DNA from: Candidatus Woesearchaeota archaeon
GTDB taxonomy: Archaea; Nanobdellota; Nanobdellia; Pacearchaeales; GW2011-AR1
Reading direction: 5' to 3'
NCBI GenBank assembly: GCA_964528215.1
Contig: CAZGSA010000001.1
Span: 1-46,531, forward strand
DNA length: 46,531 nucleotides
In this document: in pieces, positions 20,684 through 41,179 of the stretch
Numbering within the stretch: the stretch's first letter is position 1
Layout of the letters: every line of letters starts with the position of its first letter
The notes under the pieces: generated by a model
The model's database searches: none
What the model was told of the DNA's origin: nothing
What the model saw: the letters and a program-made list of their open reading frames with translations, nothing else
Translations under genes and position numbers: made by a program

Positions 20684-20903
20684 CCAATACAAAGGTATTA
20701 ATATAATATAAATTTTAGAATTAAAAGAGATAAATAAAATTTAGAATATAATCCCTCAAGTTATTCAGGTAGAAGAATTAGGAAAATATTAAATTTAGTG
20801 TAAGGATTTAAGAGAATATAGAAAAAATCTATACATTATTATAAAGAAAACTAAGATTATTAAATGTAAGGAAATATCAAAAAAAATATCAGAATAAAAC
20901 AAA

Positions 20904-22445
20904 ATGGAAATAAATGAATTTTGGAAAGAAAAAGAAAAAAATATCATTCTTCATAACAATAAAATGAATATTATTGAATCTTGTATAGATAGACACTCTC
21001 AAAAAACACCAGACAAAATAGCTTTATTTTTTAAAGATGAAACCAATGAAATAAAATATACTTATAGGCAATTGCAAGAGGAAATAAGCAAGTTTTCAAA
21101 TTTATTAAATTCATTAGAAATTAAAAAGAATTCAAGAATATTTATCTTTCTTCCAAAAATACCAGAATTATATATTAATTTTCTAGGCACAATTAAACAA
21201 GGAAGCATAGCAATACCTTTATTTGAAGCTTTTCAAGAACAAGGATTAGAACTAAGACTAAAAAAAGGAGATGCAGAGGTTTTAATAACAAACAAAGAAC
21301 TCTTAAAAAGAGTCTCAAAAGATATAAAACAAAAAATTCCTTCTTTAAAACATATTTTAGTTGTAGATTCTGAAGATTATAAAAATAAGATAAAAGAGCA
21401 AGCATTAGAATTTAAAACAGTTTTAAAAGAAAAACAAGATACAAGTTTAATGATTTTCACATCTTCAACAGCAGGAACTCCTGTTGCAGGAATAGAAATT
21501 TCTCACTATGCACTAGTTCAACAGTATTTTACAGCAGAATTTGCTCTAGGGTTAAATAAAGATTCTAACTATTGGTGCACAGCACATCCAGGATGGGTTA
21601 CTGGAAGCATCTATGGGATAATAGCCCCACTATCTATTGGATGTTCTATTTTTATTCTAGAACAGCATTTTGATGCTAAAAAATGGATTGAATTTGCAAA
21701 TAATAATAAAATTAATATTCTCTATACTGCACCTACTGCACTAAGATTGTTAAAACCAGTTATTAAAAAACAAGATTTAAAATTTGTAGAAAAAATAAAT
21801 TCAGTTGGAGAAGCACTTACAAAAGCAACATTTGATTTTTATAATGATTTAGGGATTAAAATAACAGATACTTATTGGCAGACAGAAACAGGGGCAATTG
21901 TTATTGCAAATACAGAACATAAATATGCAAGTATGGGAAAACCAATCCCAGGTATAACTGCTGAAATTAAGGATAATGCAATTGCCTTAAAACCTGATTT
22001 CCCATCACTAATGACAGGGATTTATAAACATCCTAAAATGTTTGATAGTTATTTTAAAGACAATTGGTTTAAAACAAATGATAATGCAACCCTAGAAAAT
22101 GGATATTTCTTTTTTATAGGCAGAGGAGATGATATTATTAAAACTTCTGGAGAAAGAGTAAGCCCTATTGAAATAGAATCTATTTTAATGAAACATAAAT
22201 CAGTTCATGAAGCAGCAGTCATAGGAGTTCCAGATAAAATTAAAGGAAGTATTTTAAAAGCATTTATTGTTTTGAATTCAAACATTAAACAAACTAAAGA
22301 ATTAAAAGAAGAGCTAAGCATGTTTGTAAAAGAGAATTATGCAGGTCATTCTTATCCCAAACAGATTCAATTTATAGAATCTCTTCCAAAAACAAATTCT
22401 GGCAAAATTATAAGAATGGAATTAAGAAATCTTGAAAAATCTTAA
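20904..22445 (+). CDS. AMP-forming acyl-CoA/acetyl-CoA synthetase family enzyme
   Basis: 513-aa ORF. Adenylate-forming motifs YWQTETG, GRGDDIIKTSGERVSPIEIES and LPKTNSGKIIR. The P-loop-like motif TSSTAGTPVAG is degenerate. Confidence 0.85.
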   Translation: MEINEFWKEKEKNIILHNNKMNIIESCIDRHSQKTPDKIALFFKDETNEIKYTYRQLQEEISKFSNLLNSLEIKKNSRIFIFLPKIPELYINFLGTIKQGSIAIPLFEAFQEQGLELRLKKGDAEVLITNKELLKRVSKDIKQKIPSLKHILVVDSEDYKNKIKEQALEFKTVLKEKQDTSLMIFTSSTAGTPVAGIEISHYALVQQYFTAEFALGLNKDSNYWCTAHPGWVTGSIYGIIAPLSIGCSIFILEQHFDAKKWIEFANNNKINILYTAPTALRLLKPVIKKQDLKFVEKINSVGEALTKATFDFYNDLGIKITDTYWQTETGAIVIANTEHKYASMGKPIPGITAEIKDNAIALKPDFPSLMTGIYKHPKMFDSYFKDNWFKTNDNATLENGYFFFIGRGDDIIKTSGERVSPIEIESILMKHKSVHEAAVIGVPDKIKGSILKAFIVLNSNIKQTKELKEELSMFVKENYAGHSYPKQIQFIESLPKTNSGKIIRMELRNLEKS

Positions 22446-22578
22446 ATCAGATTTTTCAGATAAAAAATAGTCTTTTATTGAAGAAAGATTTTTTGAATAT
22501 GAGAAGGTTGAATTTTACTGAAAATTATTAATAATAATTTAACGAAAGCTTTTTATATAGTATTTTGTAATATATATT

Positions 22579-24012
22579 ATGAAAAAGTTAGTAATATTGT
22601 TAGGAATGTTAATGGTATTAGTTAGCACTTTAAATTTTGTTCTTGCAACTGAATTTACTGAACCAGGAACTTATGAAATTAAACCAGGAGATACTATAAC
22701 TTTTAATGATTTAACTGTTCAAGTTATAGATATAAAAACTAATGATAATAATGTTTCATGGGAGGAAGATTTTGGTAGGGAAATGGTTTATTTGGGTACA
22801 CCTGGATTAGGTTTTTATGTTTATGTCGATGAGAAAATGGAACTTGTTAAGGCAAAATATTCTAGTGAGAAACCAATAGCAGTTATTGTAAATTCTATTG
22901 ATATAGAAAATAAAAAAGCAGAAGTTCAATTTATTGATAACTATGATGATTGCATATTAGAATATAAGAAGAAATGTCAAGATTCTGATGTTTATTGGGA
23001 AGATAGTTGTGGAAGAACTGGAGAACTTTTAGAAGATTGTGACAGTGAAGGGTGCGAAACAACTTATGGTTCAGGAAAATGTATTAATCAAGGAAGCAAT
23101 TGTATTCCAAATTATACATCCTATTGTTATCATTTAGATGCTTATTGGAGAGATAGTTGTGGAAATGAAGGCGGTTTAAAAAAGGACTGTAGAGATGGAT
23201 GTTTAGAGGGGGAATGTAAAGAGAATATTTTAATAGAAAAAGATAGCCCAACATGTGGAGATGGAATATGCAATTTTAAGGATTTTGAATCAATTTATAT
23301 GGGTAGTAAAGATGGACAAGCACAATTTGAAGGGTGTTTTGAAGACTGTCCAAGTGATATAAATGACCCTCTTGACATGATTGTGGAATATCATATGAGG
23401 TATGATTCAGAAGGAAAAAGAGAGAATTCTGAAGATTATTATTATTTAAGAATAAATAACGAAGGTAATGAAAGAGTAGATATTGCTGATTTAATATTTG
23501 TTGTTACTGGAATAGATAGGGGAATAACCCAATATAATTTGTTCAATGAATTTTCTGGTGAAATTAACTCTGGAGAGAAAAAAGAATTTAAAGTAAAAAC
23601 TGGCTTTTCGGGCTCTTTGTCTGAAAGTTTATGTGGAGAAGAATTTTCATTTGCTCTAAGAAAGAAAGATACTGATAGACTATATCATTTTAATGGTGGT
23701 AAATTTTTAAAATGTGTTGATTCATATCCTGTAGAACCTGTTGAAAATAAACCTTTAGATATTCCAGAAGTAGATGAAAAGAAATTTTATGATTGTCAAG
23801 GTTGTGAATTAGATAAAAAATGTTATTCATTTGGATATAGAAAATCAAAAAAATATTGTTCTGATGAGGGAGATTTTAAACTTCAGTTAAAAACAGAAAG
23901 TACTTGTGAGAATAACTTTGAATGTGATAGTAATGTCTGTGTTGATGATAAGTGCGTAAGTGGTAGTTTAATATGGAAGATTATTAACTGGTTTAAAAGA
24001 TTATTTAGTTAA
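22579..24012 (+). CDS. Secreted cysteine-rich protein, unknown function
   Basis: 477-aa ORF. Signal peptide MKKLVILLGMLMVLVSTLNFVLA. Repeated C..D.YW.DSCG motif, a CGDGIC motif, and C-terminal Cys modules. Confidence 0.7.
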   Translation: MKKLVILLGMLMVLVSTLNFVLATEFTEPGTYEIKPGDTITFNDLTVQVIDIKTNDNNVSWEEDFGREMVYLGTPGLGFYVYVDEKMELVKAKYSSEKPIAVIVNSIDIENKKAEVQFIDNYDDCILEYKKKCQDSDVYWEDSCGRTGELLEDCDSEGCETTYGSGKCINQGSNCIPNYTSYCYHLDAYWRDSCGNEGGLKKDCRDGCLEGECKENILIEKDSPTCGDGICNFKDFESIYMGSKDGQAQFEGCFEDCPSDINDPLDMIVEYHMRYDSEGKRENSEDYYYLRINNEGNERVDIADLIFVVTGIDRGITQYNLFNEFSGEINSGEKKEFKVKTGFSGSLSESLCGEEFSFALRKKDTDRLYHFNGGKFLKCVDSYPVEPVENKPLDIPEVDEKKFYDCQGCELDKKCYSFGYRKSKKYCSDEGDFKLQLKTESTCENNFECDSNVCVDDKCVSGSLIWKIINWFKRLFS

Positions 24013-24112
24013 GATTATTTTTCTAACCCCTGCCTTTAAAATCAATTCATCATTCTGGATAATTTTTCATATAACCCTGACATTCTTTTGAACTTCTTGT
24101 GGTTGATAATTT

Positions 24113-24352
24113 TTATCTTTTCTTAGAAATCTTTTTAAGATTTCTTGCAAGAATTGCTCTTTCTTCTAAAAGTCTTGTTACTTTAATCTTTTTCTTCCCT
24201 ATTTTGGTAGGATTAGTAATTGTATCTCCAGCCCTTGCATTAATTATTGCATCTAACAAACTAACTGGAATCTTCTTATTATTAGGAATTTCTAATTGTT
24301 TATGCAAGGCCCCTTTCTTAACCCCTATCTTCTGAATCCATTTTATTGCCAT
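24113..24352 (-). CDS. Small basic protein, unknown function
   Basis: 79-aa Lys-rich ORF (KKGALHKQLEIP...). Preferred over the hydrophobic antisense ORF at 24099-24335. Confidence 0.5.
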   Translation of the reverse strand: MAIKWIQKIGVKKGALHKQLEIPNNKKIPVSLLDAIINARAGDTITNPTKIGKKKIKVTRLLEERAILARNLKKISKKR

Positions 24353-24560
24353 TTTAATTTCATCATTTAGTTATCTAAACTAGTAATTAAATATTTATAA
24401 ATTTATTGAGATATCAGCAAATATCAATAATCTAATGTAAATCTGTTCTCATCAGATAATTGCTAATCATCCACGCAACATAAATAAAAGATATCAGAAT
24501 CCCAGATTCATAACTTTTCTTCTAATAGATTATTAACATGTAGCACATCATCAGAATAAA

Positions 24561-25340
24561 TTACCATCTCCAGTTATAAGTTTGTGTTGCAAATTCATAT
24601 CTTGGTTTGTAATAATAATTATCATAATACTTATCTTCACACTCCCACTCTTCACACTCCCAATCAATACATTCATAGTCATAACATCTTCTCCCATAAT
24701 AAGAACTATAACCAGTATTCCAGCTAGAACATCTTTTTTCTACACAATTCCATTTCTCGCAAACACAATCTTTATAGTCCTGAGTTTTGTAAGGCTCTTT
24801 ATATCTCCAGTTTGAGTTATAGATAGGAACACTATAATCTGGTTTTTGACTATAATCTTTATAATCCTTTTTAGAATTTCCACTGCCTAATTTTAAAACA
24901 TACTGGTCTTTTTTTCTATTACTTGTATCCCATAAAAAATCCCAATCAATCCAGTTATAATCCTCATATCCATAATCATCCCCCCTATCTTCATATTTTT
25001 TATAATCTATCTCAACATCTCTTTTCTCTTTAATAGAAATTTTCTCTTTTTCATAACCTTCTTTATCCCTTTTTTCATATTCTGCTATTTTCTCATAATC
25101 ACTTGATTCTTTATAATAATCACTATTAGAGTAATCTTTATTATCCCAATTAAGATATATAGACTTAGAATTTCTTAAATTATCTGTGTCACTATATTTA
25201 TTATAATCTGTAGGAATTCCACAATCATAATAATATCCCCCTGTTCCCTTGCATAAATAAGCAGCAACAAAGTTAGTAGAAAATATAACTAGTATTAATC
25301 CAATGACTAAAATTAATAGAGAGAATAGATTTTTATTCAT
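24561..25340 (-). CDS. Secreted Tyr/Asp/Lys-rich protein with Cys/Trp-rich C-terminus
   Basis: 259-aa ORF. Signal peptide MNKNLFSLLILVIGLILVIFSTNFVAA. Low-complexity Y/D/K/E core. C-terminal WNCVEKRC and IDWECEEWECED. Confidence 0.65.
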   Translation of the reverse strand: MNKNLFSLLILVIGLILVIFSTNFVAAYLCKGTGGYYYDCGIPTDYNKYSDTDNLRNSKSIYLNWDNKDYSNSDYYKESSDYEKIAEYEKRDKEGYEKEKISIKEKRDVEIDYKKYEDRGDDYGYEDYNWIDWDFLWDTSNRKKDQYVLKLGSGNSKKDYKDYSQKPDYSVPIYNSNWRYKEPYKTQDYKDCVCEKWNCVEKRCSSWNTGYSSYYGRRCYDYECIDWECEEWECEDKYYDNYYYKPRYEFATQTYNWRW

Positions 25341-25415
25341 AAAAATAACAAAATTATGAAATATTTAAGCATTATTATATTGCAGGATAATAAGGGAAAA
25401 ATAATAAAATAAAAA

Positions 25416-25496
25416 CGCCACCAGTAGGAATCGAACCTACGAGCCCCGGAGGGCGAAGCTTAGCAAGCTCCTGCAATACCATTATGCGATGGTGGC
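25416..25496 (-). tRNA. tRNA-Ser (anticodon GCU)
   Basis: 81-nt cloverleaf. Acceptor GCCACCA/TGGTGGC, anticodon stem GGAGC/GCTTC with loop TTGCTAA, long variable arm GCCCTCCGGGGC, T-arm GTAGG-TTCGATT-CCTAC, discriminator G. TATA-like tatataaaaa lies 22-31 nt upstream and a T-tract follows downstream. Confidence 0.9.
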
Positions 25497-25602
25497 TTAG
25501 ATATTAAGATATTTTACTATATAAAAAGTTAATTGTTACAGATTTTTAAAGTTGATTTTTGTAATAAGTTAATTTTATTAAACCACTTTTCTTCAAAAGA
25601 CT

Positions 25603-26268
25603 ATGAAATTAGGAATCTTATTTTCAGGAGGCAAGGATAGTGTATTTGCAACTTATCTTGCAAAAAAATTAGGATATGAAGTCCCTTGTTTAATCAGTAT
25701 TATCTCTGAAAATAAAGAAAGTTACATGTTTCATACCCCTTCAATTTCAAAAGTTGAAAAACAAGCAAAAGCTATGAACATCCCTTTAATTCTAGAAAAA
25801 ACCAGGGGGAAAAAAGAAATTGAATTAAAAGACTTAGAAAGAGCAATTAAAATTGCTGTAGATAAATATCAAATTCAAGGGATTGTAACAGGAGCAATTG
25901 ATTCTATTTATCAATCCTCAAGAATTCAAAAGATTTGTAATAAATTAAAATTAGAATGTTTTAATCCCTTATGGCAAAAAGATCAAATAGAGCTTTTAGA
26001 GGATTTGATTAAAAACAAATTCAAGGTTATTATTTCAGGGGTTTTTGCATACCCTTTAACAAAAGAATGGTTGGGAAAACAAATAAACAAAGACTTTCTT
26101 ACCCAGATAAGAAAATTAAATGAAAAATATAAAATAAATCCTGCAGGAGAAGGTGGAGAATTTGAGACTTTTGTTCTTGATTGTCCTTTATTCAGAAAAT
26201 CTCTAAAAATAAAAAATAAAAAAATAACAGGTGAAAAAAATTCTTGGGTGATGGAGATAACAATATGA
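25603..26268 (+). CDS. dph6: Dph6/MJ0570-type PP-loop ATP pyrophosphatase (diphthine-ammonia ligase family)
   Basis: 221-aa ORF. PP-loop FSGGKDS and family hallmark GEGGEFETFVLD. Confidence 0.8.
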   Translation: MKLGILFSGGKDSVFATYLAKKLGYEVPCLISIISENKESYMFHTPSISKVEKQAKAMNIPLILEKTRGKKEIELKDLERAIKIAVDKYQIQGIVTGAIDSIYQSSRIQKICNKLKLECFNPLWQKDQIELLEDLIKNKFKVIISGVFAYPLTKEWLGKQINKDFLTQIRKLNEKYKINPAGEGGEFETFVLDCPLFRKSLKIKNKKITGEKNSWVMEITI

Positions 26269-26810
26269 AAAAAGTATTAATAGTAAATGTTTGTAAGGAG
26301 AAATTACATTATCTTGAATTTGTAAAACCTATTGAAGATATTTTAAAAAATAATAAGATTAAATTTAAAACTTTAATTTATAAAAATATTAATAAATCTC
26401 AATTAATTAAATACAATAAAATAATTATTAGTGGAACTTCTTTAAAAGATAATTATTTTCTAAAAGATATAGGCAAGTTTTCTTGGATTAAGGATACTGA
26501 GATACCTATTCTTGGAATTTGTTCTGGGATGCAGATAATAGGGTTAGAATTTGGAGGTAGATTAAAAAAGAAAACAGAAATAGGATTTTTTAAGGAAAAT
26601 TTTAAAAAAGATTTACTTGGATTAAAAAGAGAGCAAGAAGTTTACCATTTACACAATAATTATATAGAATTTACAGAACATTTTGAGATAATCTCTAAAA
26701 ATAATATAACTCAAGCAGTAAAACATAAATCAAAAGAAATATATGGGGTATTATTTCATCCAGAGGTTAGAAATAAGAAATTAATCTTAAATTTTATAGA
26801 TAAAAAATAG
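26265..26810 (+). CDS. Class I glutamine amidotransferase (GuaA subunit A-like)
   Basis: Catalytic Cys in ILGICSGMQIIG and His-Glu in LFHPEV. The ATG at 26265 overlaps the Dph6 stop (ATGA). The track start at 26244 is TTG. Confidence 0.75.
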   Translation: MKKVLIVNVCKEKLHYLEFVKPIEDILKNNKIKFKTLIYKNINKSQLIKYNKIIISGTSLKDNYFLKDIGKFSWIKDTEIPILGICSGMQIIGLEFGGRLKKKTEIGFFKENFKKDLLGLKREQEVYHLHNNYIEFTEHFEIISKNNITQAVKHKSKEIYGVLFHPEVRNKKLILNFIDKK

Positions 26811-26830
26811 GCTTTCTAGTTTTTATATCT

Positions 26831-26949
26831 CTTGCCAACCCTGAAGGGCGTGGCTTAGCAATCCTACTCCTCAAAGCAATTTCTTATTTTATCTATTCAC
26901 TAAATACTAAAATTGCTTTTGCTCGACAACACCACTATGCGATGTGGGC
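26831..26949 (-). ncRNA. Truncated tRNA-Ser-like element 1 (5' two-thirds of the tRNA, no T-arm; possible pseudogene)
   Basis: Minus strand reads GCCCACATCGCATAGTGGTGTTGTCGAGC, then a 60-nt hairpin module, then AGGATTGCTAAGCCACGCCCTTCAGGG. This is homologous to the tRNA-Ser from position 1 through the variable arm. A TATA-like box lies 26-31 nt upstream. Confidence 0.6.
26865..26924 (-). repeat. 60-nt hairpin module inserted in tRNA-like element 1
   Basis: GAGC-AAAAGCAATTTT...AAATTGCTTTG-AGGAGTA. The stem AAAGCAATT/AATTGCTTT encloses an AT-rich loop. The same module is present twice in element 3. Confidence 0.8.
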
Positions 26950-26964
26950 ATGTGAAGATAGATT

Positions 26965-26985
26965 ATTTTAAGAATTTAAAGGTTT
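26965..26985 (-). promoter_or_regulatory. Conserved BRE/TATA-like promoter motif of tRNA-like element 1
   Basis: The 21-mer attttaagaatttaaaggttt is identical at 28033-28053. The TATA core tttaaa lies 26-31 nt from the first G of the element. Confidence 0.55.
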
Positions 26986-27016
26986 GTTTTTTTATTATTT
27001 TATCCAAACCATCACC

Positions 27017-27211
27017 TTATCTACTAACTGCCCTCAACAACCTTATCTTTTCCTTACCCTCTTCAGTTTCAGCTAGCTTTGAATAAAATCTTCTTGCCAT
27101 GATTATCTGAGCATTAACAAAATCCTTAAATTTTGATTTCCATTTATCAGGATTATCACGAACATATTCTGCCCATCTTTCAATTTGTTCTGAATGTGTT
27201 TTATCTCTCAT
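27017..27211 (-). CDS. Small helical protein, partner of the NTase-fold protein
   Basis: 64-aa ORF whose ATG overlaps the stop of 27208-27783 by 4 nt (ATGA). Confidence 0.5.
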   Translation of the reverse strand: MRDKTHSEQIERWAEYVRDNPDKWKSKFKDFVNAQIIMARRFYSKLAETEEGKEKIRLLRAVSR

Positions 27212-27783
27212 TTTCTAAATCTCCTTATCTTTTCTTTAATAACCTCTATCTCATTCTCATCCAATTTATTTTTATATATTATCCTAAGATGTTTTGCATC
27301 TTCAACATCCTTATCTGAACCTAAATATTCCTCTTTAAATGCAATATTTGATTCTATGGTTGAAAAATAAACCTCAACTTCAGTAAGAGGAAGTTTGATT
27401 CTATTTTTAATTTGTTCTCTATCCAATTCATCTTTTGGAAATTTGATTTCCATTTCTGGTGGAAAATAGCCCTCTTCGTCCTCCACATATCTTACACTAT
27501 CTCCTTTATTAAGATAATCCACATAGATTACTTCTGGTTTTTCTGATTGCATGCAAGTAAATCCTTTTTCTTTTAGTTCTCTGTGCATTTTTAAAAATTC
27601 TTTTTCAGACATTTTTTCAATAATCATATCAATATCCTCAGTCCCTCTTGTCCTGCCATGAGCAATAGCAACAAAACCAGAACAGATAATATACCTCGCA
27701 TATTTATCAATAACTTCACAAAAGTCCTCTACAAATTTATCCAAAATGGTTCTATTATCTACTCTTCTTTCAAACTTTTCCAT
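27208..27783 (-). CDS. Minimal nucleotidyltransferase-fold protein (MNT/AbiEii-like)
   Basis: 191-aa ORF. SGFVAIAHGRTRGTEDIDMII fits the G-x(n)-D-x-D NTase signature. Confidence 0.6.
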   Translation of the reverse strand: MEKFERRVDNRTILDKFVEDFCEVIDKYARYIICSGFVAIAHGRTRGTEDIDMIIEKMSEKEFLKMHRELKEKGFTCMQSEKPEVIYVDYLNKGDSVRYVEDEEGYFPPEMEIKFPKDELDREQIKNRIKLPLTEVEVYFSTIESNIAFKEEYLGSDKDVEDAKHLRIIYKNKLDENEIEVIKEKIRRFRK

Positions 27784-27885
27784 AATATACTTAACTTCAA
27801 TATCTATATAATATTTTCTATAGAAAATTTTAGTAAACCTTCTTTAAAGATTTTCCCTTTACAATAAATTTAAAAATAAAAAATA

Positions 27886-28013
27886 GGAGCTTAGTTCTAA
27901 GAATCACCTTAATAGGTCCTTGGTTAGTTGGAAGAAAGTGATATTTTTTACTAACAGTTACAATTTTATGACCTATTTTAGCAACACCACTACAATACAT
28001 ATATAGTGTGGGC
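27886..28013 (-). ncRNA. Truncated tRNA-like element 2 (more degenerate; possible pseudogene)
   Basis: GCCCACAC...GTGGTGTTGC, then an unrelated hairpin (AATAGGTC at 27911-27918 pairs with GACCTATT at 27970-27977), then ...CTAAGCTCC followed by a T-tract. Shares the 21-nt promoter motif with element 1. Confidence 0.5.
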
Positions 28014-28032
28014 TTATTCTAGATTAATAAAA

Positions 28033-28053
28033 ATTTTAAGAATTTAAAGGTTT
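28033..28053 (-). promoter_or_regulatory. Conserved BRE/TATA-like promoter motif of tRNA-like element 2
   Basis: Identical 21-mer attttaagaatttaaaggttt, 20 nt upstream of the element's 5' end. Confidence 0.5.
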
Positions 28054-28110
28054 ACGCCCTAATATTTTCATTACATAAATTTTATATAATCTATTTAATA
28101 TATAACTATT

Positions 28111-28311
28111 ATGAACACTCTAAGCAGAACAATCACAGGAACTATTGCAATTATTTTAGGATTATTTTTAATTATACTTAGTATTTTTAAAGAATATTTC
28201 ATATTAATCTATGGAATACCCATTCTTATTATTGGGATTTTTATTCTTTTAAATAAAAAAGAAGATGATATAGAAACTATAAAAACTAAAAGAAAAGGAG
28301 GTGAAAAATAA
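28111..28311 (+). CDS. Small two-TM membrane protein
   Basis: 66-aa ORF. Its stop overlaps the YbjQ start (TAATG). GGAGGTG lies upstream of the next start. Confidence 0.55.
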   Translation: MNTLSRTITGTIAIILGLFLIILSIFKEYFILIYGIPILIIGIFILLNKKEDDIETIKTKRKGGEK

Positions 28312-28634: not shown

Positions 28635-28635
28635 T

Positions 28636-28725
28636 TTATTTCTTTAATTTTCTTTGCTTAGATTTTCTACGTTGAGCTTGCTTACTTCTTGCTTTAATTT
28701 TTCTTGTTACCCTATTTCTTGGCAT
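28636..28725 (-). CDS. 29-aa highly basic peptide (not in ORF track)
   Basis: MPRNRVTRKIKARSKQAQRRKSKQRKLKK. The ATG is preceded by AGGAGGAAAA. Lies directly downstream of tRNA-like element 3 on the same strand. Confidence 0.4.
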   Translation of the reverse strand: MPRNRVTRKIKARSKQAQRRKSKQRKLKK

Positions 28726-33992: not shown

Positions 33993-34092
33993 GATTATTT
34001 TTCTAACCCCTGCCTTTAAAATCAATTCATCATTCTGGATAATTTTTCATATAACCCTGACATTCTTTTGAACTTCTTGTGGTTGATAATTT

Positions 34093-34332
34093 TTATCTTT
34101 TCTTAGAAATCTTTTTAAGATTTCTTGCAAGAATTGCTCTTTCTTCTAAAAGTCTTGTTACTTTAATCTTTTTCTTCCCTATTTTGGTAGGATTAGTAAT
34201 TGTATCTCCAGCCCTTGCATTAATTATTGCATCTAACAAACTAACTGGAATCTTCTTATTATTAGGAATTTCTAATTGTTTATGCAAGGCCCCTTTCTTA
34301 ACCCCTATCTTCTGAATCCATTTTATTGCCAT
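34093..34332 (-). CDS. Small basic protein (copy 2)
   Basis: Identical to 24113-24352 at +9,980. Confidence 0.5.
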   Translation of the reverse strand: MAIKWIQKIGVKKGALHKQLEIPNNKKIPVSLLDAIINARAGDTITNPTKIGKKKIKVTRLLEERAILARNLKKISKKR

Positions 34333-34540
34333 TTTAATTTCATCATTTAGTTATCTAAACTAGTAATTAAATATTTATAAATTTATTGAGATATCAGCAA
34401 ATATCAATAATCTAATGTAAATCTGTTCTCATCAGATAATTGCTAATCATCCACGCAACATAAATAAAAGATATCAGAATCCCAGATTCATAACTTTTCT
34501 TCTAATAGATTATTAACATGTAGCACATCATCAGAATAAA

Positions 34541-35320
34541 TTACCATCTCCAGTTATAAGTTTGTGTTGCAAATTCATATCTTGGTTTGTAATAATAATT
34601 ATCATAATACTTATCTTCACACTCCCACTCTTCACACTCCCAATCAATACATTCATAGTCATAACATCTTCTCCCATAATAAGAACTATAACCAGTATTC
34701 CAGCTAGAACATCTTTTTTCTACACAATTCCATTTCTCGCAAACACAATCTTTATAGTCCTGAGTTTTGTAAGGCTCTTTATATCTCCAGTTTGAGTTAT
34801 AGATAGGAACACTATAATCTGGTTTTTGACTATAATCTTTATAATCCTTTTTAGAATTTCCACTGCCTAATTTTAAAACATACTGGTCTTTTTTTCTATT
34901 ACTTGTATCCCATAAAAAATCCCAATCAATCCAGTTATAATCCTCATATCCATAATCATCCCCCCTATCTTCATATTTTTTATAATCTATCTCAACATCT
35001 CTTTTCTCTTTAATAGAAATTTTCTCTTTTTCATAACCTTCTTTATCCCTTTTTTCATATTCTGCTATTTTCTCATAATCACTTGATTCTTTATAATAAT
35101 CACTATTAGAGTAATCTTTATTATCCCAATTAAGATATATAGACTTAGAATTTCTTAAATTATCTGTGTCACTATATTTATTATAATCTGTAGGAATTCC
35201 ACAATCATAATAATATCCCCCTGTTCCCTTGCATAAATAAGCAGCAACAAAGTTAGTAGAAAATATAACTAGTATTAATCCAATGACTAAAATTAATAGA
35301 GAGAATAGATTTTTATTCAT
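34541..35320 (-). CDS. Secreted Tyr/Asp/Lys-rich protein (copy 2)
   Basis: Identical to 24561-25340 at +9,980. Confidence 0.65.
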   Translation of the reverse strand: MNKNLFSLLILVIGLILVIFSTNFVAAYLCKGTGGYYYDCGIPTDYNKYSDTDNLRNSKSIYLNWDNKDYSNSDYYKESSDYEKIAEYEKRDKEGYEKEKISIKEKRDVEIDYKKYEDRGDDYGYEDYNWIDWDFLWDTSNRKKDQYVLKLGSGNSKKDYKDYSQKPDYSVPIYNSNWRYKEPYKTQDYKDCVCEKWNCVEKRCSSWNTGYSSYYGRRCYDYECIDWECEEWECEDKYYDNYYYKPRYEFATQTYNWRW

Positions 35321-35395
35321 AAAAATAACAAAATTATGAAATATTTAAGCATTATTATATTGCAGGATAATAAGGGAAAAATAATAAAATAAAAA

Positions 35396-35476
35396 CGCCA
35401 CCAGTAGGAATCGAACCTACGAGCCCCGGAGGGCGAAGCTTAGCAAGCTCCTGCAATACCATTATGCGATGGTGGC
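35396..35476 (-). tRNA. tRNA-Ser (anticodon GCU), copy 2
   Basis: Identical to 25416-25496 at +9,980. Confidence 0.9.
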
Positions 35477-35582
35477 TTAGATATTAAGATATTTTACTAT
35501 ATAAAAAGTTAATTGTTACAGATTTTTAAAGTTGATTTTTGTAATAAGTTAATTTTATTAAACCACTTTTCTTCAAAAGACT

Positions 35583-36248
35583 ATGAAATTAGGAATCTTA
35601 TTTTCAGGAGGCAAGGATAGTGTATTTGCAACTTATCTTGCAAAAAAATTAGGATATGAAGTCCCTTGTTTAATCAGTATTATCTCTGAAAATAAAGAAA
35701 GTTACATGTTTCATACCCCTTCAATTTCAAAAGTTGAAAAACAAGCAAAAGCTATGAACATCCCTTTAATTCTAGAAAAAACCAGGGGGAAAAAAGAAAT
35801 TGAATTAAAAGACTTAGAAAGAGCAATTAAAATTGCTGTAGATAAATATCAAATTCAAGGGATTGTAACAGGAGCAATTGATTCTATTTATCAATCCTCA
35901 AGAATTCAAAAGATTTGTAATAAATTAAAATTAGAATGTTTTAATCCCTTATGGCAAAAAGATCAAATAGAGCTTTTAGAGGATTTGATTAAAAACAAAT
36001 TCAAGGTTATTATTTCAGGGGTTTTTGCATACCCTTTAACAAAAGAATGGTTGGGAAAACAAATAAACAAAGACTTTCTTACCCAGATAAGAAAATTAAA
36101 TGAAAAATATAAAATAAATCCTGCAGGAGAAGGTGGAGAATTTGAGACTTTTGTTCTTGATTGTCCTTTATTCAGAAAATCTCTAAAAATAAAAAATAAA
36201 AAAATAACAGGTGAAAAAAATTCTTGGGTGATGGAGATAACAATATGA
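35583..36248 (+). CDS. dph6: Dph6/MJ0570-type PP-loop ATP pyrophosphatase (copy 2)
   Basis: Identical to 25603-26268 at +9,980. Confidence 0.8.
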   Translation: MKLGILFSGGKDSVFATYLAKKLGYEVPCLISIISENKESYMFHTPSISKVEKQAKAMNIPLILEKTRGKKEIELKDLERAIKIAVDKYQIQGIVTGAIDSIYQSSRIQKICNKLKLECFNPLWQKDQIELLEDLIKNKFKVIISGVFAYPLTKEWLGKQINKDFLTQIRKLNEKYKINPAGEGGEFETFVLDCPLFRKSLKIKNKKITGEKNSWVMEITI

Positions 36249-36790
36249 AAAAAGTATTAATAGTAAATGTTTGTAAGGAGAAATTACATTATCTTGAATT
36301 TGTAAAACCTATTGAAGATATTTTAAAAAATAATAAGATTAAATTTAAAACTTTAATTTATAAAAATATTAATAAATCTCAATTAATTAAATACAATAAA
36401 ATAATTATTAGTGGAACTTCTTTAAAAGATAATTATTTTCTAAAAGATATAGGCAAGTTTTCTTGGATTAAGGATACTGAGATACCTATTCTTGGAATTT
36501 GTTCTGGGATGCAGATAATAGGGTTAGAATTTGGAGGTAGATTAAAAAAGAAAACAGAAATAGGATTTTTTAAGGAAAATTTTAAAAAAGATTTACTTGG
36601 ATTAAAAAGAGAGCAAGAAGTTTACCATTTACACAATAATTATATAGAATTTACAGAACATTTTGAGATAATCTCTAAAAATAATATAACTCAAGCAGTA
36701 AAACATAAATCAAAAGAAATATATGGGGTATTATTTCATCCAGAGGTTAGAAATAAGAAATTAATCTTAAATTTTATAGATAAAAAATAG
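36245..36790 (+). CDS. Class I glutamine amidotransferase (copy 2)
   Basis: Identical to 26265-26810 at +9,980. Confidence 0.75.
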   Translation: MKKVLIVNVCKEKLHYLEFVKPIEDILKNNKIKFKTLIYKNINKSQLIKYNKIIISGTSLKDNYFLKDIGKFSWIKDTEIPILGICSGMQIIGLEFGGRLKKKTEIGFFKENFKKDLLGLKREQEVYHLHNNYIEFTEHFEIISKNNITQAVKHKSKEIYGVLFHPEVRNKKLILNFIDKK

Positions 36791-36810
36791 GCTTTCTAGT
36801 TTTTATATCT

Positions 36811-36929
36811 CTTGCCAACCCTGAAGGGCGTGGCTTAGCAATCCTACTCCTCAAAGCAATTTCTTATTTTATCTATTCACTAAATACTAAAATTGCTTTT
36901 GCTCGACAACACCACTATGCGATGTGGGC
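36811..36929 (-). ncRNA. Truncated tRNA-Ser-like element 1, copy 2
   Basis: Identical to 26831-26949 at +9,980. Hairpin module at 36845-36904. Confidence 0.6.
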
Positions 36930-36996
36930 ATGTGAAGATAGATTATTTTAAGAATTTAAAGGTTTGTTTTTTTATTATTTTATCCAAACCATCACC

Positions 36997-37191
36997 TTAT
37001 CTACTAACTGCCCTCAACAACCTTATCTTTTCCTTACCCTCTTCAGTTTCAGCTAGCTTTGAATAAAATCTTCTTGCCATGATTATCTGAGCATTAACAA
37101 AATCCTTAAATTTTGATTTCCATTTATCAGGATTATCACGAACATATTCTGCCCATCTTTCAATTTGTTCTGAATGTGTTTTATCTCTCAT
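36997..37191 (-). CDS. Small helical partner of the NTase-fold protein (copy 2)
   Basis: Identical to 27017-27211 at +9,980. Confidence 0.5.
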   Translation of the reverse strand: MRDKTHSEQIERWAEYVRDNPDKWKSKFKDFVNAQIIMARRFYSKLAETEEGKEKIRLLRAVSR

Positions 37192-37763
37192 TTTCTAAAT
37201 CTCCTTATCTTTTCTTTAATAACCTCTATCTCATTCTCATCCAATTTATTTTTATATATTATCCTAAGATGTTTTGCATCTTCAACATCCTTATCTGAAC
37301 CTAAATATTCCTCTTTAAATGCAATATTTGATTCTATGGTTGAAAAATAAACCTCAACTTCAGTAAGAGGAAGTTTGATTCTATTTTTAATTTGTTCTCT
37401 ATCCAATTCATCTTTTGGAAATTTGATTTCCATTTCTGGTGGAAAATAGCCCTCTTCGTCCTCCACATATCTTACACTATCTCCTTTATTAAGATAATCC
37501 ACATAGATTACTTCTGGTTTTTCTGATTGCATGCAAGTAAATCCTTTTTCTTTTAGTTCTCTGTGCATTTTTAAAAATTCTTTTTCAGACATTTTTTCAA
37601 TAATCATATCAATATCCTCAGTCCCTCTTGTCCTGCCATGAGCAATAGCAACAAAACCAGAACAGATAATATACCTCGCATATTTATCAATAACTTCACA
37701 AAAGTCCTCTACAAATTTATCCAAAATGGTTCTATTATCTACTCTTCTTTCAAACTTTTCCAT
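37188..37763 (-). CDS. Minimal nucleotidyltransferase-fold protein (copy 2)
   Basis: Identical to 27208-27783 at +9,980. Confidence 0.6.
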   Translation of the reverse strand: MEKFERRVDNRTILDKFVEDFCEVIDKYARYIICSGFVAIAHGRTRGTEDIDMIIEKMSEKEFLKMHRELKEKGFTCMQSEKPEVIYVDYLNKGDSVRYVEDEEGYFPPEMEIKFPKDELDREQIKNRIKLPLTEVEVYFSTIESNIAFKEEYLGSDKDVEDAKHLRIIYKNKLDENEIEVIKEKIRRFRK

Positions 37764-37865
37764 AATATACTTAACTTCAATATCTATATAATATTTTCTA
37801 TAGAAAATTTTAGTAAACCTTCTTTAAAGATTTTCCCTTTACAATAAATTTAAAAATAAAAAATA

Positions 37866-37993
37866 GGAGCTTAGTTCTAAGAATCACCTTAATAGGTCCT
37901 TGGTTAGTTGGAAGAAAGTGATATTTTTTACTAACAGTTACAATTTTATGACCTATTTTAGCAACACCACTACAATACATATATAGTGTGGGC
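37866..37993 (-). ncRNA. Truncated tRNA-like element 2, copy 2
   Basis: Identical to 27886-28013 at +9,980. Confidence 0.5.
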
Positions 37994-38090
37994 TTATTCT
38001 AGATTAATAAAAATTTTAAGAATTTAAAGGTTTACGCCCTAATATTTTCATTACATAAATTTTATATAATCTATTTAATATATAACTATT

Positions 38091-38291
38091 ATGAACACTC
38101 TAAGCAGAACAATCACAGGAACTATTGCAATTATTTTAGGATTATTTTTAATTATACTTAGTATTTTTAAAGAATATTTCATATTAATCTATGGAATACC
38201 CATTCTTATTATTGGGATTTTTATTCTTTTAAATAAAAAAGAAGATGATATAGAAACTATAAAAACTAAAAGAAAAGGAGGTGAAAAATAA
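38091..38291 (+). CDS. Small two-TM membrane protein (copy 2)
   Basis: Identical to 28111-28311 at +9,980. Confidence 0.55.
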   Translation: MNTLSRTITGTIAIILGLFLIILSIFKEYFILIYGIPILIIGIFILLNKKEDDIETIKTKRKGGEK

Positions 38292-38614
38292 TGGTAGATA
38301 TAATTATTACAACTGGAAATGAAATTCCTGAAAAAAAGATTACTAAAATTCTTGGAGTTGTAAGAGGCAGCACTGTAAGGGCAAGAAATATTGGAAGGGA
38401 TATTGGAGCTGGATTTAAAAATATTATCGGTGGAGAAGTCAAAACCTATACAGAGATGACAAAACAATCAAGAGATGAAGCATTTAATAGAATGGTTAAT
38501 GAAGCCTTGGATTTAAAGGCTGATGCAGTTATTGGTGTTAGATTTACAACTTCTATGGTAATGGCAGGAGCTTCTGAAATGCTTGCATATGGAACTGCAA
38601 TTAAAATTAGTTAA
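38291..38614 (+). CDS. YbjQ/UPF0145 family protein (copy 2)
   Basis: Identical to 28311-28634 at +9,980. Confidence 0.85.
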   Translation: MVDIIITTGNEIPEKKITKILGVVRGSTVRARNIGRDIGAGFKNIIGGEVKTYTEMTKQSRDEAFNRMVNEALDLKADAVIGVRFTTSMVMAGASEMLAYGTAIKIS

Positions 38615-38615
38615 T

Positions 38616-38705
38616 TTATTTCTTTAATTTTCTTTGCTTAGATTTTCTACGTTGAGCTTGCTTACTTCTTGCTTTAATTTTTCTTGTTACCCTATTTCTT
38701 GGCAT
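38616..38705 (-). CDS. 29-aa highly basic peptide (copy 2)
   Basis: Identical to 28636-28725 at +9,980. Confidence 0.4.
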   Translation of the reverse strand: MPRNRVTRKIKARSKQAQRRKSKQRKLKK

Positions 38706-38756
38706 TTTTCCTCCTAAATTAAATTATTTTTAATTATTATTAATATTTTCTACTAT

Positions 38757-38933
38757 GGGCTCACTTTTGTACCCTTATTAGCAACCTTACTTCCCAAAGC
38801 AATTTCTTATTTTATCTATTTACTAAATACTAAAATTGCTTTTGCTCTACTCCCCAAAACAATTTCTTATTTTATCTATTTACTAAATACTAAAATTGCT
38901 TTTGCTCAACAATAACCATTATGCGATGCGGGC
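38757..38933 (-). ncRNA. Truncated tRNA-Ser-like element 3, copy 2
   Basis: Identical to 28777-28953 at +9,980. The 2 x 60-nt module lies at 38788-38907. Confidence 0.6.
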
Positions 38934-39034
38934 TTATAGAAATATATAATATTTTATGATTTTAAATGTTTGTGTTTTAAACATTTTTTCTACACAAGAT
39001 TTAAAAAATAATTTATCTTAATCATCTTAATTTT

Positions 39035-40432
39035 ATGGAAATTAAATCACAAAAAGAGGCGGTTGAAAAACTTAGAGAAAAGACTAAGAAAATAAGCATA
39101 ATTGAAGCAAGTGCCTATAGTGTTCATGAAGGTTTTGGTATAAAATACATAACCCCCTTTGCACTTGCAATTGGAAAAAATAATCCTCAGATAAACACAT
39201 TTATAGGTTTATTGACTTCTATTCCTTCTTTAATAGGAAATCTTTCACAACTCTTTACAATAAAGGCAATTGAAAATCATAGGAGAAAGAATATACTAAC
39301 CCTAGGGATTATTCTCCAGGCAATCATGTGGTGGGGAGTAATCTTTGCAGGAAGCTTGTTTTTTATTTTTAAACTTAATTCAAGTGTTGCTTTGACAGCC
39401 CTAATCCTGTTTTATACATTGCTTATTTTAATGGGTGCATTTGTAGGTCCTGCATGGGTATCTCTAATGAAAGAGATTGTTACTGATAAAGAAGGAAGTT
39501 ATTTTGGAAACAGAAATAGGATTGCAGGAATCTTTGCAATAATCTCTGCATTGATTGCAGGATATCTTTTAGATTACCTAACAACTAAGGATTTGTTCTT
39601 GGGATTTGTAATCCTATTTTTAATAGCTTTCCTCTTTAGATTTATTTCCGGGTTGCTCTTCACTATTCATTATGAGCCTAAACTAGAGTTTGATAAATCA
39701 AACTATTTTAGCTTTTACAAGTTTATAAAAAAGATTCCAAGTAGTAATTTTGGGAAGTTCAGTCTTTTTATCTCTTTATTTATCCTTGCAACTTCTATTG
39801 CTTCACCATTTTTTTCAGTTTATATGTTAAGAGACCTTGGGTTTAATTACTCAACCTGGATGATAATAACCTTGGCAGGACCTTTATCTTCACTTTTTTT
39901 TATGCCAATGTGGGGATATTTTGCCGACAAGTTTGGAAATATTAAAATATTAAAAATAACAGGGTTAGTAATACCCACTATTCCTATCTTATGGATTTTT
40001 TCAATCTTTTTTAATAACTCTTTTTACCTCTTGTTCTATCTAATAATCTTGGAATTCTTCTCAGGCTTTTTATGGGCAGGATTTAATCTATCTTACGCAA
40101 ACTTTATCTATGATGCAGTTACAAAGCAGAAGACAGCTCTTTGTTCAGCTTATTTTAATATTCTTCAAGGATTTGGAGTTTTTATAGGAGCAACATTAGG
40201 AGGATTTATATCTTCATTAAATATTTTTATTTTTGGTCTCAGTTCATTACTGTTTGTCTTTGCACTATCAGGTATAGCCAGATTTTTATCCTACATCCTG
40301 ATTATATTTAGGATTAAAGAGATAAGAGATGTTAAACCTTTCAGGCTAGAAGAATTAAAGAAAATTCATATAAAACCTTTCCTAGATATTTTCAATCTTA
40401 AGATAATCCATCCAAGACCAAATGGGAATTAA
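39035..40432 (+). CDS. MFS-type transporter (copy 2)
   Basis: Identical to 29055-30452 at +9,980. Confidence 0.7.
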   Translation: MEIKSQKEAVEKLREKTKKISIIEASAYSVHEGFGIKYITPFALAIGKNNPQINTFIGLLTSIPSLIGNLSQLFTIKAIENHRRKNILTLGIILQAIMWWGVIFAGSLFFIFKLNSSVALTALILFYTLLILMGAFVGPAWVSLMKEIVTDKEGSYFGNRNRIAGIFAIISALIAGYLLDYLTTKDLFLGFVILFLIAFLFRFISGLLFTIHYEPKLEFDKSNYFSFYKFIKKIPSSNFGKFSLFISLFILATSIASPFFSVYMLRDLGFNYSTWMIITLAGPLSSLFFMPMWGYFADKFGNIKILKITGLVIPTIPILWIFSIFFNNSFYLLFYLIILEFFSGFLWAGFNLSYANFIYDAVTKQKTALCSAYFNILQGFGVFIGATLGGFISSLNIFIFGLSSLLFVFALSGIARFLSYILIIFRIKEIRDVKPFRLEELKKIHIKPFLDIFNLKIIHPRPNGN

Positions 40433-40519
40433 GGTATTTTAAAGATTTGTGTTTTAAATGCCATCAGATTTAAACAAATTTTCCATAAGACTTATATACT
40501 AATTTTTGTTAATTAAAAT

Positions 40520-41179
40520 ATGAAAAAGGTGATATTATTTTTATTAGTAGGAATATTTCTTATGAGTTTTGTAGTTGCACAAGGACAAGGAATTCACAAT
40601 CCTGGAACAGGAATTGAAAATCCAGAGATTAAAGAAGCAGGACAAGGAACTGGACAAGGATTAGAAACAGATACTCAAAATCAAGGGTTAGATACTAATT
40701 TACAAAATCAAATCAGAGTTAGAGATGGAGATTATATAGGAGAAAAAGGACAACAAATAAAAATCCAGAAACAATCAAATAATAGAGTAAGATTAGAAGT
40801 TGGTGGAATTGGGGTAAATTGTGATTGCAATATGACTCAGGAACAAATTCAGAATAAAACAAGATTAAGAACAATTTTAAGTAATGGAAGAAATGCAGAG
40901 ATTAAGATAATGCCAAATACTGCTTCAGAAACTGCCTTAGAAAGATTAAGATTAAGAAATTGCAGTAAAGAAGAATGTTCTATTGAATTAAAAGAAGTTG
41001 GACAAGGCCAGCAAGCAAGACTTGCCTATGAACTAAAAACACAAAAACAATCAATGGTTTTTGGTTTATTTAAAAAAAGAATGCAAGTTCAGGCACAAGT
41101 AGATGCAGAATCTGGGGAAATTATAAGGGTTCAAAAACCTTGGTGGGCTTTTTTAGCAAGTGAATCTGATAAAGAATAA
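40520..41179 (+). CDS. Secreted Gln/Gly-rich protein, full length
   Basis: 219-aa ORF. Signal peptide MKKVILFLLVGIFLMSFVVAQG, a Q/G/N-rich region, and C-terminal ...KPWWAFLASESDKE. Confidence 0.65.
   Translation: MKKVILFLLVGIFLMSFVVAQGQGIHNPGTGIENPEIKEAGQGTGQGLETDTQNQGLDTNLQNQIRVRDGDYIGEKGQQIKIQKQSNNRVRLEVGGIGVNCDCNMTQEQIQNKTRLRTILSNGRNAEIKIMPNTASETALERLRLRNCSKEECSIELKEVGQGQQARLAYELKTQKQSMVFGLFKKRMQVQAQVDAESGEIIRVQKPWWAFLASESDKE

What the first reader, a model, noticed from the sequence alone, without database searches (positions are those of the whole stretch)
20889..40862. 9,980-bp head-to-tail tandem duplication (no differences seen) joined through a 14-bp microhomology
Every ORF from 20904 to 30893 recurs with an identical translation exactly 9,980 nt downstream (20904/30884, 22579/32559, 25603/35583, 29055/39035 and so on). 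Every intergenic stretch I compared is also identical. Identity starts at 20889, since 20888 is a and 30868 is t. It ends at 30882/40862, since 30883 is a and 40863 is g. The 14-mer tcagaataaaacaa sits at the left edge (20889-20902), the junction (30869-30882) and the right edge (40849-40862). That arrangement is expected if a short homology between the acyl-CoA synthetase leader and the interior of the secreted-protein gene mediated the duplication. Unique sequence flanks both sides (20.9 kb on the left, 5.7 kb on the right), so this is not a circular-contig terminal overlap. Zero divergence over about 10 kb means either a very recent amplification or an assembly error. A real amplification would double the acyl-CoA synthetase, MFS transporter, tRNA-Ser, Dph6/GATase and secreted proteins. 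Such structures are unstable, so an amplified state may be under selection or heterogeneous in the population.
Basis: seen in the sequence. Interest (0 to 1): 0.8.

Follow-up and report, generated by a model that had tools for sequence, protein, structure and literature searches.

The report
Exact 10-kb tandem duplication, DPANN contig
One assembled contig of an uncultured DPANN archaeon carries a perfect head-to-tail duplication of a 10-kb block of ordinary genes, joined through 14 shared bases; this is a well-known kind of rearrangement, it appears in no other assembly of the same population, and it cannot be confirmed without the raw reads.

Summary
Window 20889-30882 equals 30869-40862 (9,994 nt, no mismatch, offset 9,980). 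The 14-mer TCAGAATAAAACAA occurs only at the left edge, the junction and the right edge. The window is a complete 46,531-nt NCBI contig of a low-GC DPANN archaeon; the closest genome relatives are labelled "uncultured archaeon" and "Nanoarchaeota archaeon". The unit carries an acetate-CoA-ligase-like gene, two secreted proteins, tRNA-Ser(GCU), Dph6, a GATase, YbjQ and an MFS transporter. It has no integrase, Rep or transposase. The right breakpoint truncates a conserved secreted-protein gene. The resulting chimeric ORF overlaps the start of the second ligase copy, which keeps only 15 nt of its own leader. Near-identical contigs from three other samples cross the left or right edge without a break, as the single-copy allele would. 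The chimeric junction protein is on record only for this contig. The most likely explanation (about 0.6) is a microhomology-mediated tandem duplication present in that sample. Zero divergence is uninformative if the assembler printed one collapsed graph edge twice. Copy number and frequency are unknown. This is a known kind of event and of modest interest.

The parts
20889..30868 (+). Copy 1 of the 9,980-bp unit. It keeps the native upstream context (POR - NUDIX - ligase).
   Evidence: identity run. POR-NUDIX-ligase synteny is conserved in relatives L006 and L007, so this is the ancestral position.
30869..40848 (+). Copy 2 of the unit, identical to copy 1.
   Evidence: 0 mismatches.
20889..20902 (+). 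14-mer TCAGAATAAAACAA at the left edge. It ends one base before the ligase ATG (20904).
30869..30882 (+). 14-mer at the novel junction (end of unit joined to start of unit).
40849..40862 (+). 14-mer at the right edge, inside the intact secreted-protein gene (codons for ..IQNKT..).
30540..30893 (+). Chimeric ORF. It has the first 114 residues of the secreted protein plus KWK and a stop. Its stop (30891-30893) overlaps the ATG (30884) of ligase copy 2.
   Evidence: The product P0122 (103-aa call from 30582) is on record only for the 46,531-nt NCBI contig.
40520..41179 (+). Intact secreted-protein gene (219 aa, signal peptide). It belongs to a conserved DPANN family with no Pfam model. The right breakpoint lies inside it.
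   Evidence: 1,192 homologues, mostly named Nanoarchaeota, Pacearchaeota or Woesearchaeota. (no significant Pfam match).
20904..22445 (+). Acetate-CoA-ligase-like AMP-forming acyl-CoA synthetase, copy 1 (native promoter region 20684-20903).
   Evidence: best NCBIfam match PRK04319, 523 bits, below the 729 cutoff.
30884..32425 (+). Ligase copy 2. Only 15 nt of the native leader are retained. Everything further upstream is coding sequence of the truncated secreted-protein gene.
   Evidence: The loss of the promoter is inferred.
25416..25496 (-). tRNA-Ser(GCU), copy 1 (copy 2 at 35396-35476). It is internal to the unit, more than 4.5 kb from either edge.
25603..26810 (+). Dph6 (diphthine-ammonia ligase) followed by a class-I glutamine amidotransferase. 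Second copy at +9,980.
   Evidence: TIGR03679, 270 bits against a cutoff of 197.
29055..30452 (+). MFS transporter, copy 1 (copy 2 at 39035-40432).

Best explanation
This is a microhomology-mediated tandem duplication of a 9,980-bp chromosomal segment in a DPANN archaeon. It was present in the DNA of the sample behind this contig, in all cells or in a clonally expanded subpopulation. The parental chromosome happened to carry the same AT-rich 14-mer once in the leader of the acyl-CoA synthetase gene and once, 9,980 bp downstream, inside a secreted-protein gene. Mispairing of these two copies between sister chromosomes joined the end of the segment to its start. The route could have been template switching, single-strand annealing or microhomology-mediated end joining; which one is inferred, not shown. 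The result doubles ten or so housekeeping genes. It leaves one truncated and one intact secreted-protein gene. It also places the second synthetase copy, stripped of its own upstream region, directly behind the truncated gene, where it would be transcribed from that gene's promoter (inferred). Shown here: the exact structure, the microhomology, the parental allele in other samples, the absence of mobile-element genes, and the uniqueness of the junction. Inferred: that junction reads exist in the source sample, the true copy number, the recombination route, and any effect on expression or selection.
For: The structure is exact and the 14-mer sits at all three diagnostic positions. Homology stops abruptly on both sides of the 14-mer, so no long flanking repeat or IS could have mediated homologous recombination. 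The parental allele with one 14-mer at each edge exists. L001, L002 and L022 run from the NUDIX flank into the unit. L023 and L024 run from the MFS gene through the intact secreted-protein gene into the giant gene. All are at least 99.98% identical to the window. Relatives keep POR-NUDIX-ligase. A 14-nt overlap is not chance (p about 4e-8). It is also too short for any usual assembler to join on. The single-copy sequence holds 165 14-mer pairs at least 100 nt apart, so an assembler that accepted 14-nt overlaps could not have built a 46-kb contig. The junction therefore came from reads. The unit has no integrase, Rep or transposase. MDA chimeras are typically inverted, with 5-8 nt of overlap and less than 5 kb apart (PMC4595205). 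This junction is direct, has 14 nt of overlap and spans 9,980 nt. There is a precedent of the same size and type: 7-13 kb sdrM amplifications in S. aureus, with microhomology or no-homology junctions and higher expression from upstream highly expressed loci (PMC11721125).
Against: No read-level evidence is available. The junction and its chimeric product occur only on this one contig. MEGAHIT and Logan contigs from three other samples of the same population cross the left or right edge with no fork there, so the duplication was absent or rare in those samples. Perfect identity of the copies, including at sites that vary in the population, is also what a loop traversal in an assembly graph prints. 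The two-copy state is therefore an assembler's estimate and not a measurement. The sequencing and assembly method of the source MAG is unknown.
Confidence: 0.6

Rival explanations
1. Artefact of library preparation or assembly. In this reading a few chimeric molecules joined the two 14-mers in vitro, through phi29/MDA template switching or PCR jumping. They created a loop edge in the assembly graph, and a repeat-resolving assembler walked the loop once. The organism itself is single-copy.
For: The junction is seen on one contig only. Every other assembly of the population is compatible with a single copy. The identical copies are what a graph-loop traversal would produce. Direct MDA chimeras with overlap segments do exist (PMC4595205). 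An AT-rich 14-mer (about 34 C by the Wallace rule, my calculation) could anneal at the 30 C used for MDA.
Against: Typical MDA chimeras are inverted, have 5-8 nt of overlap and span less than 5 kb. A 14-mer with 3 G/C would not prime at PCR annealing temperatures (inference). Sporadic chimeric reads are individually unique and are normally removed as low-coverage edges (my knowledge of de Bruijn assemblers, not tested). Nothing indicates that the sample was amplified.
Confidence: 0.25
2. The chromosome is single-copy and an excised 9,980-bp circle is also present. Recombination between the two 14-mers loops out the segment. The circle junction is identical to a tandem junction, and the assembler threaded it into the chromosome.
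For: A circle gives the same junction sequence. The 14-mers flank the segment as direct repeats in the parental allele.
Against: The unit has no integrase, recombinase or replication gene. The tRNA is internal and not at an edge. The right 'att' would lie inside a conserved gene. Pairs of 14-mers like this are at chance frequency in this DNA. A non-replicating circle could not reach assembly-level coverage (inference). The reciprocal deletion would remove Dph6 and tRNA-Ser(GCU).
Confidence: 0.05
3. An older, stably inherited segmental duplication (paralogous blocks) characteristic of this lineage.
For: None beyond the presence of two copies.
Against: There are no differences over 9,994 nt, although the population shows about 2-4 SNPs per 10 kb and a VNTR between samples. 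Assemblies from other samples cross the breakpoints as a single copy would. Relatives L006 and L007 carry one ligase gene within +/-10 kb.
Confidence: 0.03

Closest known systems
RecA-independent (illegitimate, microhomology-mediated) tandem duplication and gene amplification in bacteria, e.g. the sdrM (MFS pump) amplifications in S. aureus reviewed in PMC11721125
   Same: Head-to-tail repeat of a 7-13 kb chromosomal block. A single novel junction with a few to about 15 nt of microhomology. No IS or rrn flanks. The unit contains an MFS transporter. The junction places a gene behind a foreign promoter. Such structures are expected to be unstable and heterogeneous in a population.
   Different: This case is an uncultivated DPANN archaeon known only from one metagenome-derived contig. 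No selective agent is known, copy number and frequency are unmeasured, and only two copies are written.
Homologous-recombination (R-D-R-D-R) tandem duplications between IS elements, rrn operons or REP sequences, the class with a homologous-recombination (HR) signature in the 'Tandem' classifier (bioRxiv 10.64898/2026.05.22.727201)
   Same: The same overall geometry: repeat at the left edge, at the junction and at the right edge.
   Different: That classifier requires at least 35 bp at 92% identity or more. Here the repeat is 14 bp with mismatches immediately on both sides, so this case falls in the microhomology class with no HR signature.
Integrated mobile element bounded by att direct repeats
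   Same: A roughly 10-kb segment bounded by a short direct repeat in the parental allele, with a tRNA gene inside the region.
   Different: There is no integrase, excisionase or replication gene. The tRNA is 4.5 kb from the nearest edge. One boundary lies inside a conserved chromosomal gene. The content is housekeeping.
phi29 MDA chimeric junctions (PMC4595205)
   Same: A join between nearby genomic positions through a short overlap segment.
   Different: Those are typically inverted, with 5-8 nt of overlap and a distance peaking at 250-300 nt and ranging to about 5 kb. This one is direct, has 14 nt of overlap and spans 9,980 nt.

Membership tests
Microhomology-mediated tandem duplication (no-HR class) | Two contiguous head-to-tail copies of one chromosomal segment with unique flanks | tested here: met
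   20889-30882 = 30869-40862. The flanks of 20.9 kb and 5.7 kb are unique.
Microhomology-mediated tandem duplication (no-HR class) | A short exact overlap at the junction that is present once at each edge of the parental single-copy allele | tested here: met
   The 14-mer lies at 20889, 30869 and 40849. Parental edges are seen in L001, L002 and L022 (left) and L023 and L024 (right).
Microhomology-mediated tandem duplication (no-HR class) | No extended flanking homology (35 bp or more at 92% or more), IS element or rrn operon at the boundaries | tested here: met
   Identity ends immediately outside the 14-mer on both sides. No transposase was found.
Microhomology-mediated tandem duplication (no-HR class) | Independent reads spanning the junction and raised depth over the unit | not testable with these tools
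   No reads are available. The junction pattern is absent from viral contigs. The chimeric product is on record once only, on this contig.
Microhomology-mediated tandem duplication (no-HR class) | Instability or heterogeneity: a single-copy allele co-exists in the population | tested here: inconclusive
   Contigs from three other samples cross the breakpoints as the single-copy allele would. Co-existence within the source sample itself cannot be tested.
Integrative mobile element / excised circle | An integrase, recombinase or replication gene within the segment | tested here: not met
   Pfam, PHROGs and NCBIfam scans of the unit's ORFs gave none.
Integrative mobile element / excised circle | An att repeat that is part of a tRNA gene at the element's edge | tested here: not met
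   tRNA-Ser lies at 25416-25496, 4.5 kb from the left edge and 5.4 kb from the right. The 14-mer lies in a gene leader and inside a coding sequence.
Terminal overlap of a circular contig | The repeat lies at the two ends of the contig | tested here: not met
   The window is the whole 46,531-nt contig. The repeat is internal.
MDA chimera | Typical signature: inverted orientation, 5-8 nt overlap, distance under about 5 kb | tested here: not met
   The junction is direct, has 14 nt of overlap and spans 9,980 nt (against PMC4595205). This makes an MDA chimera atypical but does not exclude it.
Ancient paralogous segmental duplication | Sequence divergence between the copies | tested here: not met
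   There are 0 differences in 9,994 nt, while samples differ at 25683, 26871, 26932, 28580 and in a VNTR.

The most novel reading that the evidence does not exclude
The duplication is real and rose to high frequency in one natural population because it was selected. The junction creates a new two-gene transcription unit in which a second acetyl/acyl-CoA synthetase is driven by the promoter of a conserved, probably abundant, secreted DPANN protein. The adjacent MFS transporter and tRNA-Ser(GCU) are doubled as well. This would be a naturally caught example of adaptive gene amplification with promoter capture in an uncultivated, genome-reduced DPANN archaeon.
Probability: 0.15. Interest if true: 0.5.

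Novelty: new member of a known kind. Interest (0 to 1): 0.3.

Why it matters
If real, this shows that genome-reduced DPANN archaea undergo the same transient, microhomology-driven amplifications that underlie rapid adaptation and heteroresistance in bacteria. It would also offer a concrete locus (synthetase plus MFS transporter) where dosage or promoter rewiring may be under selection in the wild. If it is an artefact, it is a useful warning in two ways. Exact internal tandem duplications in MAG contigs can be loop traversals, and zero divergence between the copies then says nothing about age. Either way it doubles the apparent gene count for about ten genes in this MAG, which matters for copy-number-based metabolic or completeness and contamination estimates.

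Tried and rejected
(1) I looked for the junction elsewhere.
- Exact look-ups of the chimeric ORF with both possible starts found nothing in the gene-position index.
- A 36-nt junction pattern is absent from viral contigs.
- The cluster look-up found the chimeric product only on the window's own contig.

(2) Scans of genome contigs and metagenome contigs with the ligase gave only relatives at 70% identity or less, and no copy of this population.

(3) I rejected the mobile-element and circle hypothesis. The unit has no integrase, Rep or transposase. The 14-mer repeat is at chance frequency. The tRNA is internal.

(4) I checked contig ends as indirect evidence of a graph fork at the breakpoints.
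- L003 ends at 40866, 4 nt past the right breakpoint. It carries the normal continuation (GATT), so it does not match a fork at 40862.
- L019, L020 and L021 end at 20727-20747, inside an inverted repeat.
- L022 ends at 20931.
- None of these supports the junction.

(5) I tried to infer the assembler's k from contig ends in the giant gene. No internal repeat explained them, so I dropped this.

(6) I looked for a divergent haplotype of the secreted protein that would explain the forks at 40866 and 41134. The best other homologue is 77% identical and no near-identical variant was found.

(7) I searched for the sample and project identifiers in the literature. Only LFW-165_1 was traced, to a DPANN MAG from the Little Forest Legacy Site (PMC8561730).

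(8) I tested whether the 85-nt repeated element is an intron-bearing tRNA. ARAGORN with introns allowed and Rfam at E<=1 both found nothing.
Full report
**Observation**

A base-by-base comparison at offset 9,980 gives a single uninterrupted identity run, 20889-30882 = 30869-40862 (9,994 nt, no mismatch, no N). The structure is therefore flank, 14-mer, unit, 14-mer, unit, 14-mer, flank, with a period of 9,980 bp. All ORFs and a tRNA-Ser(GCU) recur at +9,980. At 28% GC, two arbitrary sites share 14 consecutive bases with p of about 4e-8. The join was homology-guided.

**Source and organism**

- Every protein looked up by exact sequence reports a longest contig of 46,531 nt from NCBI. The window is therefore a complete GenBank contig and not a slice of a longer one.
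- The closest genomes in the species-representative collection are 'uncultured archaeon LFW-165_1' (70% identity for the ligase) and 'Nanoarchaeota archaeon E14' (66%).
- Homologues of the secreted protein are mostly named Nanoarchaeota, Pacearchaeota or Woesearchaeota. This is a low-GC DPANN archaeon.
- Both relatives conserve POR - NUDIX - ligase. Copy 1 therefore sits in the ancestral context.

**Content of the unit**

- The unit holds an acetate-CoA-ligase-like AMP-forming synthetase (best NCBIfam match PRK04319, below cutoff).
- It holds a 477-aa Cys-rich and a 259-aa secreted protein, and tRNA-Ser(GCU).
- It holds Dph6 (TIGR03679, above cutoff) and a class-I GATase.
- It holds a small DUF8150 protein plus a 191-aa protein.
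- It holds YbjQ and an MFS transporter.
- No integrase, recombinase, Rep or transposase was detected with Pfam, PHROGs or NCBIfam.

**Anatomy of the breakpoints**

- The left breakpoint lies 15 nt upstream of the ligase ATG.
- The right breakpoint lies at codon 114 of a 219-aa signal-peptide protein. That protein belongs to a large DPANN family with no Pfam model (1,192 homologues).
- At the junction the truncated gene reads ...IQNKT-KWK-stop. Its stop codon (30891-30893) overlaps the ATG of ligase copy 2 at 30884.
- Copy 2 keeps only 15 nt of its native upstream region. I infer that it has lost its own promoter and would be expressed by read-through from the secreted-protein promoter. An AT-rich TATA-like box, CTTATATAC, lies about 25 nt before the ATG at 30540. 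I read this by eye and it is not tested.

**The parental allele in the population**

Exact-protein look-ups retrieved contigs at least 99.9% identical to the window from ENA assemblies ERZ27248895, ERZ27248920, ERZ27248937 and ERZ27248953, from Logan SRR8437287 and from JGI 3300028156.

| Contig | Sample | Window coordinates | What it crosses |
|---|---|---|---|
| L001 | ERZ27248920 | 17709-30480 | left edge |
| L002 | SRR8437287 | 19340-28849 | left edge |
| L022 | ERZ27248895 | 19857-20931 | left edge |
| L023 | ERZ27248920 | 40433 onward | right edge, on through the intact secreted-protein gene |
| L024 | ERZ27248895 | 39504-42102 | right edge, on through the intact secreted-protein gene |

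- Each contig alone is compatible with either allele. However, a tandem repeat collapsed in a de Bruijn graph forks at both edges and should break contigs there. This is my knowledge of such assemblers and was not tested.
- These contigs cross without a break, so the junction was absent or rare in those samples.
- The chimeric junction protein is not in the gene-position index. Among about 15 billion proteins it occurs once, on the window's own contig (P0122).

**Is the junction real DNA?**

- The single-copy reconstruction contains 165 pairs of identical 14-mers at least 100 nt apart, against 39 expected under a first-order Markov model.
- This has two consequences. The pre-existing repeat is an ordinary chance feature and not a dedicated site. 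And no assembler that joined on 14-nt overlaps could have produced a 46-kb contig from this DNA.
- Usual k-mer or overlap lengths exceed 14, so reads containing the junction must have existed.
- phi29 MDA chimeras do use overlap segments. They are mostly inverted, with a 5-8 nt overlap and distances peaking at 250-300 nt and reaching about 5 kb (PMC4595205). This junction is direct, has 14 nt of overlap and spans 9,980 nt.
- A 14-mer with three G/C (about 34 C by the Wallace rule) would not support PCR jumping at normal annealing temperatures (inference).
- A looped-out circle would give the same junction. It would lack replication and recombination genes and could not reach assembly-level depth (inference).

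**What zero divergence means**

- Samples differ at 25683, 26871, 26932 and 28580 and in a 60-bp VNTR. The two copies in the window agree at all of these sites.
- If the contig came from short reads, a 10-kb exact repeat cannot be spanned. A repeat-resolving assembler prints the same graph edge twice, so identity is by construction and says nothing about age. The copy number 'two' is then only an estimate. MEGAHIT-style unitig output could not contain the repeat at all. All of this is my knowledge of assemblers and was not tested.
- If the contig came from long reads, the identity is real and the event is recent.
- The method used for this MAG is unknown to me.

**Verdict**

- The most likely reading (about 0.6) is a genuine microhomology-mediated tandem duplication in the source sample. 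It is private to that sample or lineage, and its frequency and copy number are unknown.
- An in-vitro or assembly artefact remains a serious rival (about 0.25). A circle (about 0.05) and an old paralogous duplication (about 0.03) are unlikely.
- The event belongs to a well-described class. Bacterial amplifications of 7-13 kb with microhomology or no-homology junctions and promoter capture are documented, for example the MFS pump sdrM in S. aureus (PMC11721125).
- Current classifiers would put this case in the microhomology class with no homologous-recombination (HR) signature, because the repeat is far below 35 bp (bioRxiv 10.64898/2026.05.22.727201).
- The modest novelty lies in the host, an uncultivated DPANN archaeon, and in the junction that rewires a second synthetase gene.
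- Interest is 0.3.

Noticed in passing
window 26850-26950 and 28798-28950 (and +9,980): An element of about 85 nt is repeated inside the unit. The second site holds a 60-bp x2 tandem array (28808-28927) that is a VNTR in the population: contig L003 has one copy. On the minus strand each element begins GCCC(A/G)CATCGCATA(G/A)TGGT. It shares 14 nt with the 5' part of tRNA-Ser(GCU). A long AT-rich hairpin follows, then TTGCTAA, which is the Ser-GCU anticodon loop. ARAGORN with introns allowed and Rfam at E<=1 find nothing. It may be tRNA-derived or a disrupted tRNA-like sequence.
   Followed up: partly
window 40866-41135: Contig L003 (ERZ27248953) ends at 40866, 4 nt past the right breakpoint. 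Contigs L025 (SRR8437287, k=31) and L027 (ERZ27248953, k=141) start at 41134 and 41135. This suggests a fork-bounded stretch, possibly an alternative haplotype, in the 3' half of the secreted-protein gene in two samples. No near-identical variant protein was found. The closeness to the breakpoint is unexplained and may be coincidence.
   Followed up: partly
window 40520-41179: The 219-aa signal-peptide protein has more than 1,000 homologues of about 200-250 aa across DPANN archaea (Nanoarchaeota, Pacearchaeota, Woesearchaeota) and no Pfam family. JGI names a few of them 'archaellum component FlaG'. The only Pfam hint is a sub-threshold PepSY match (E=0.015) at the C-terminus.
   Followed up: partly
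window 41538-46531 (continues in L023 to 1,849 aa): A giant secreted protein with Big_13 and Big_7 Ig-like domains and PQQ_2/BamB-like repeats lies immediately downstream of the duplication. The contig ends inside it.
   Followed up: no
window 20702-20750: A 16-nt inverted repeat (88% complementary, 17-nt spacer) lies in the NUDIX-ligase intergenic region. Three short contigs from three different samples end inside it (20727, 20732, 20747).
   Followed up: no
window 27017-27783 (minus strand): A 64-aa DUF8150 protein overlaps the start of a 191-aa protein with no family match. The overlapping two-gene arrangement looks like a toxin-antitoxin pair, but this is unannotated.
   Followed up: no
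window 6825-7193: A-rich imperfect tandem repeats (periods 19-33) lie at the 3' end of ORF 6325-7194. They would encode a Lys/Glu-rich low-complexity tail.
   Followed up: no
clusters of window proteins (P0128, P0132): A sister strain with roughly 95-98% identical proteins (NUDIX, 477-aa secreted protein) co-occurs in the ENA samples. This probably explains many of the contig breaks.
   Followed up: no
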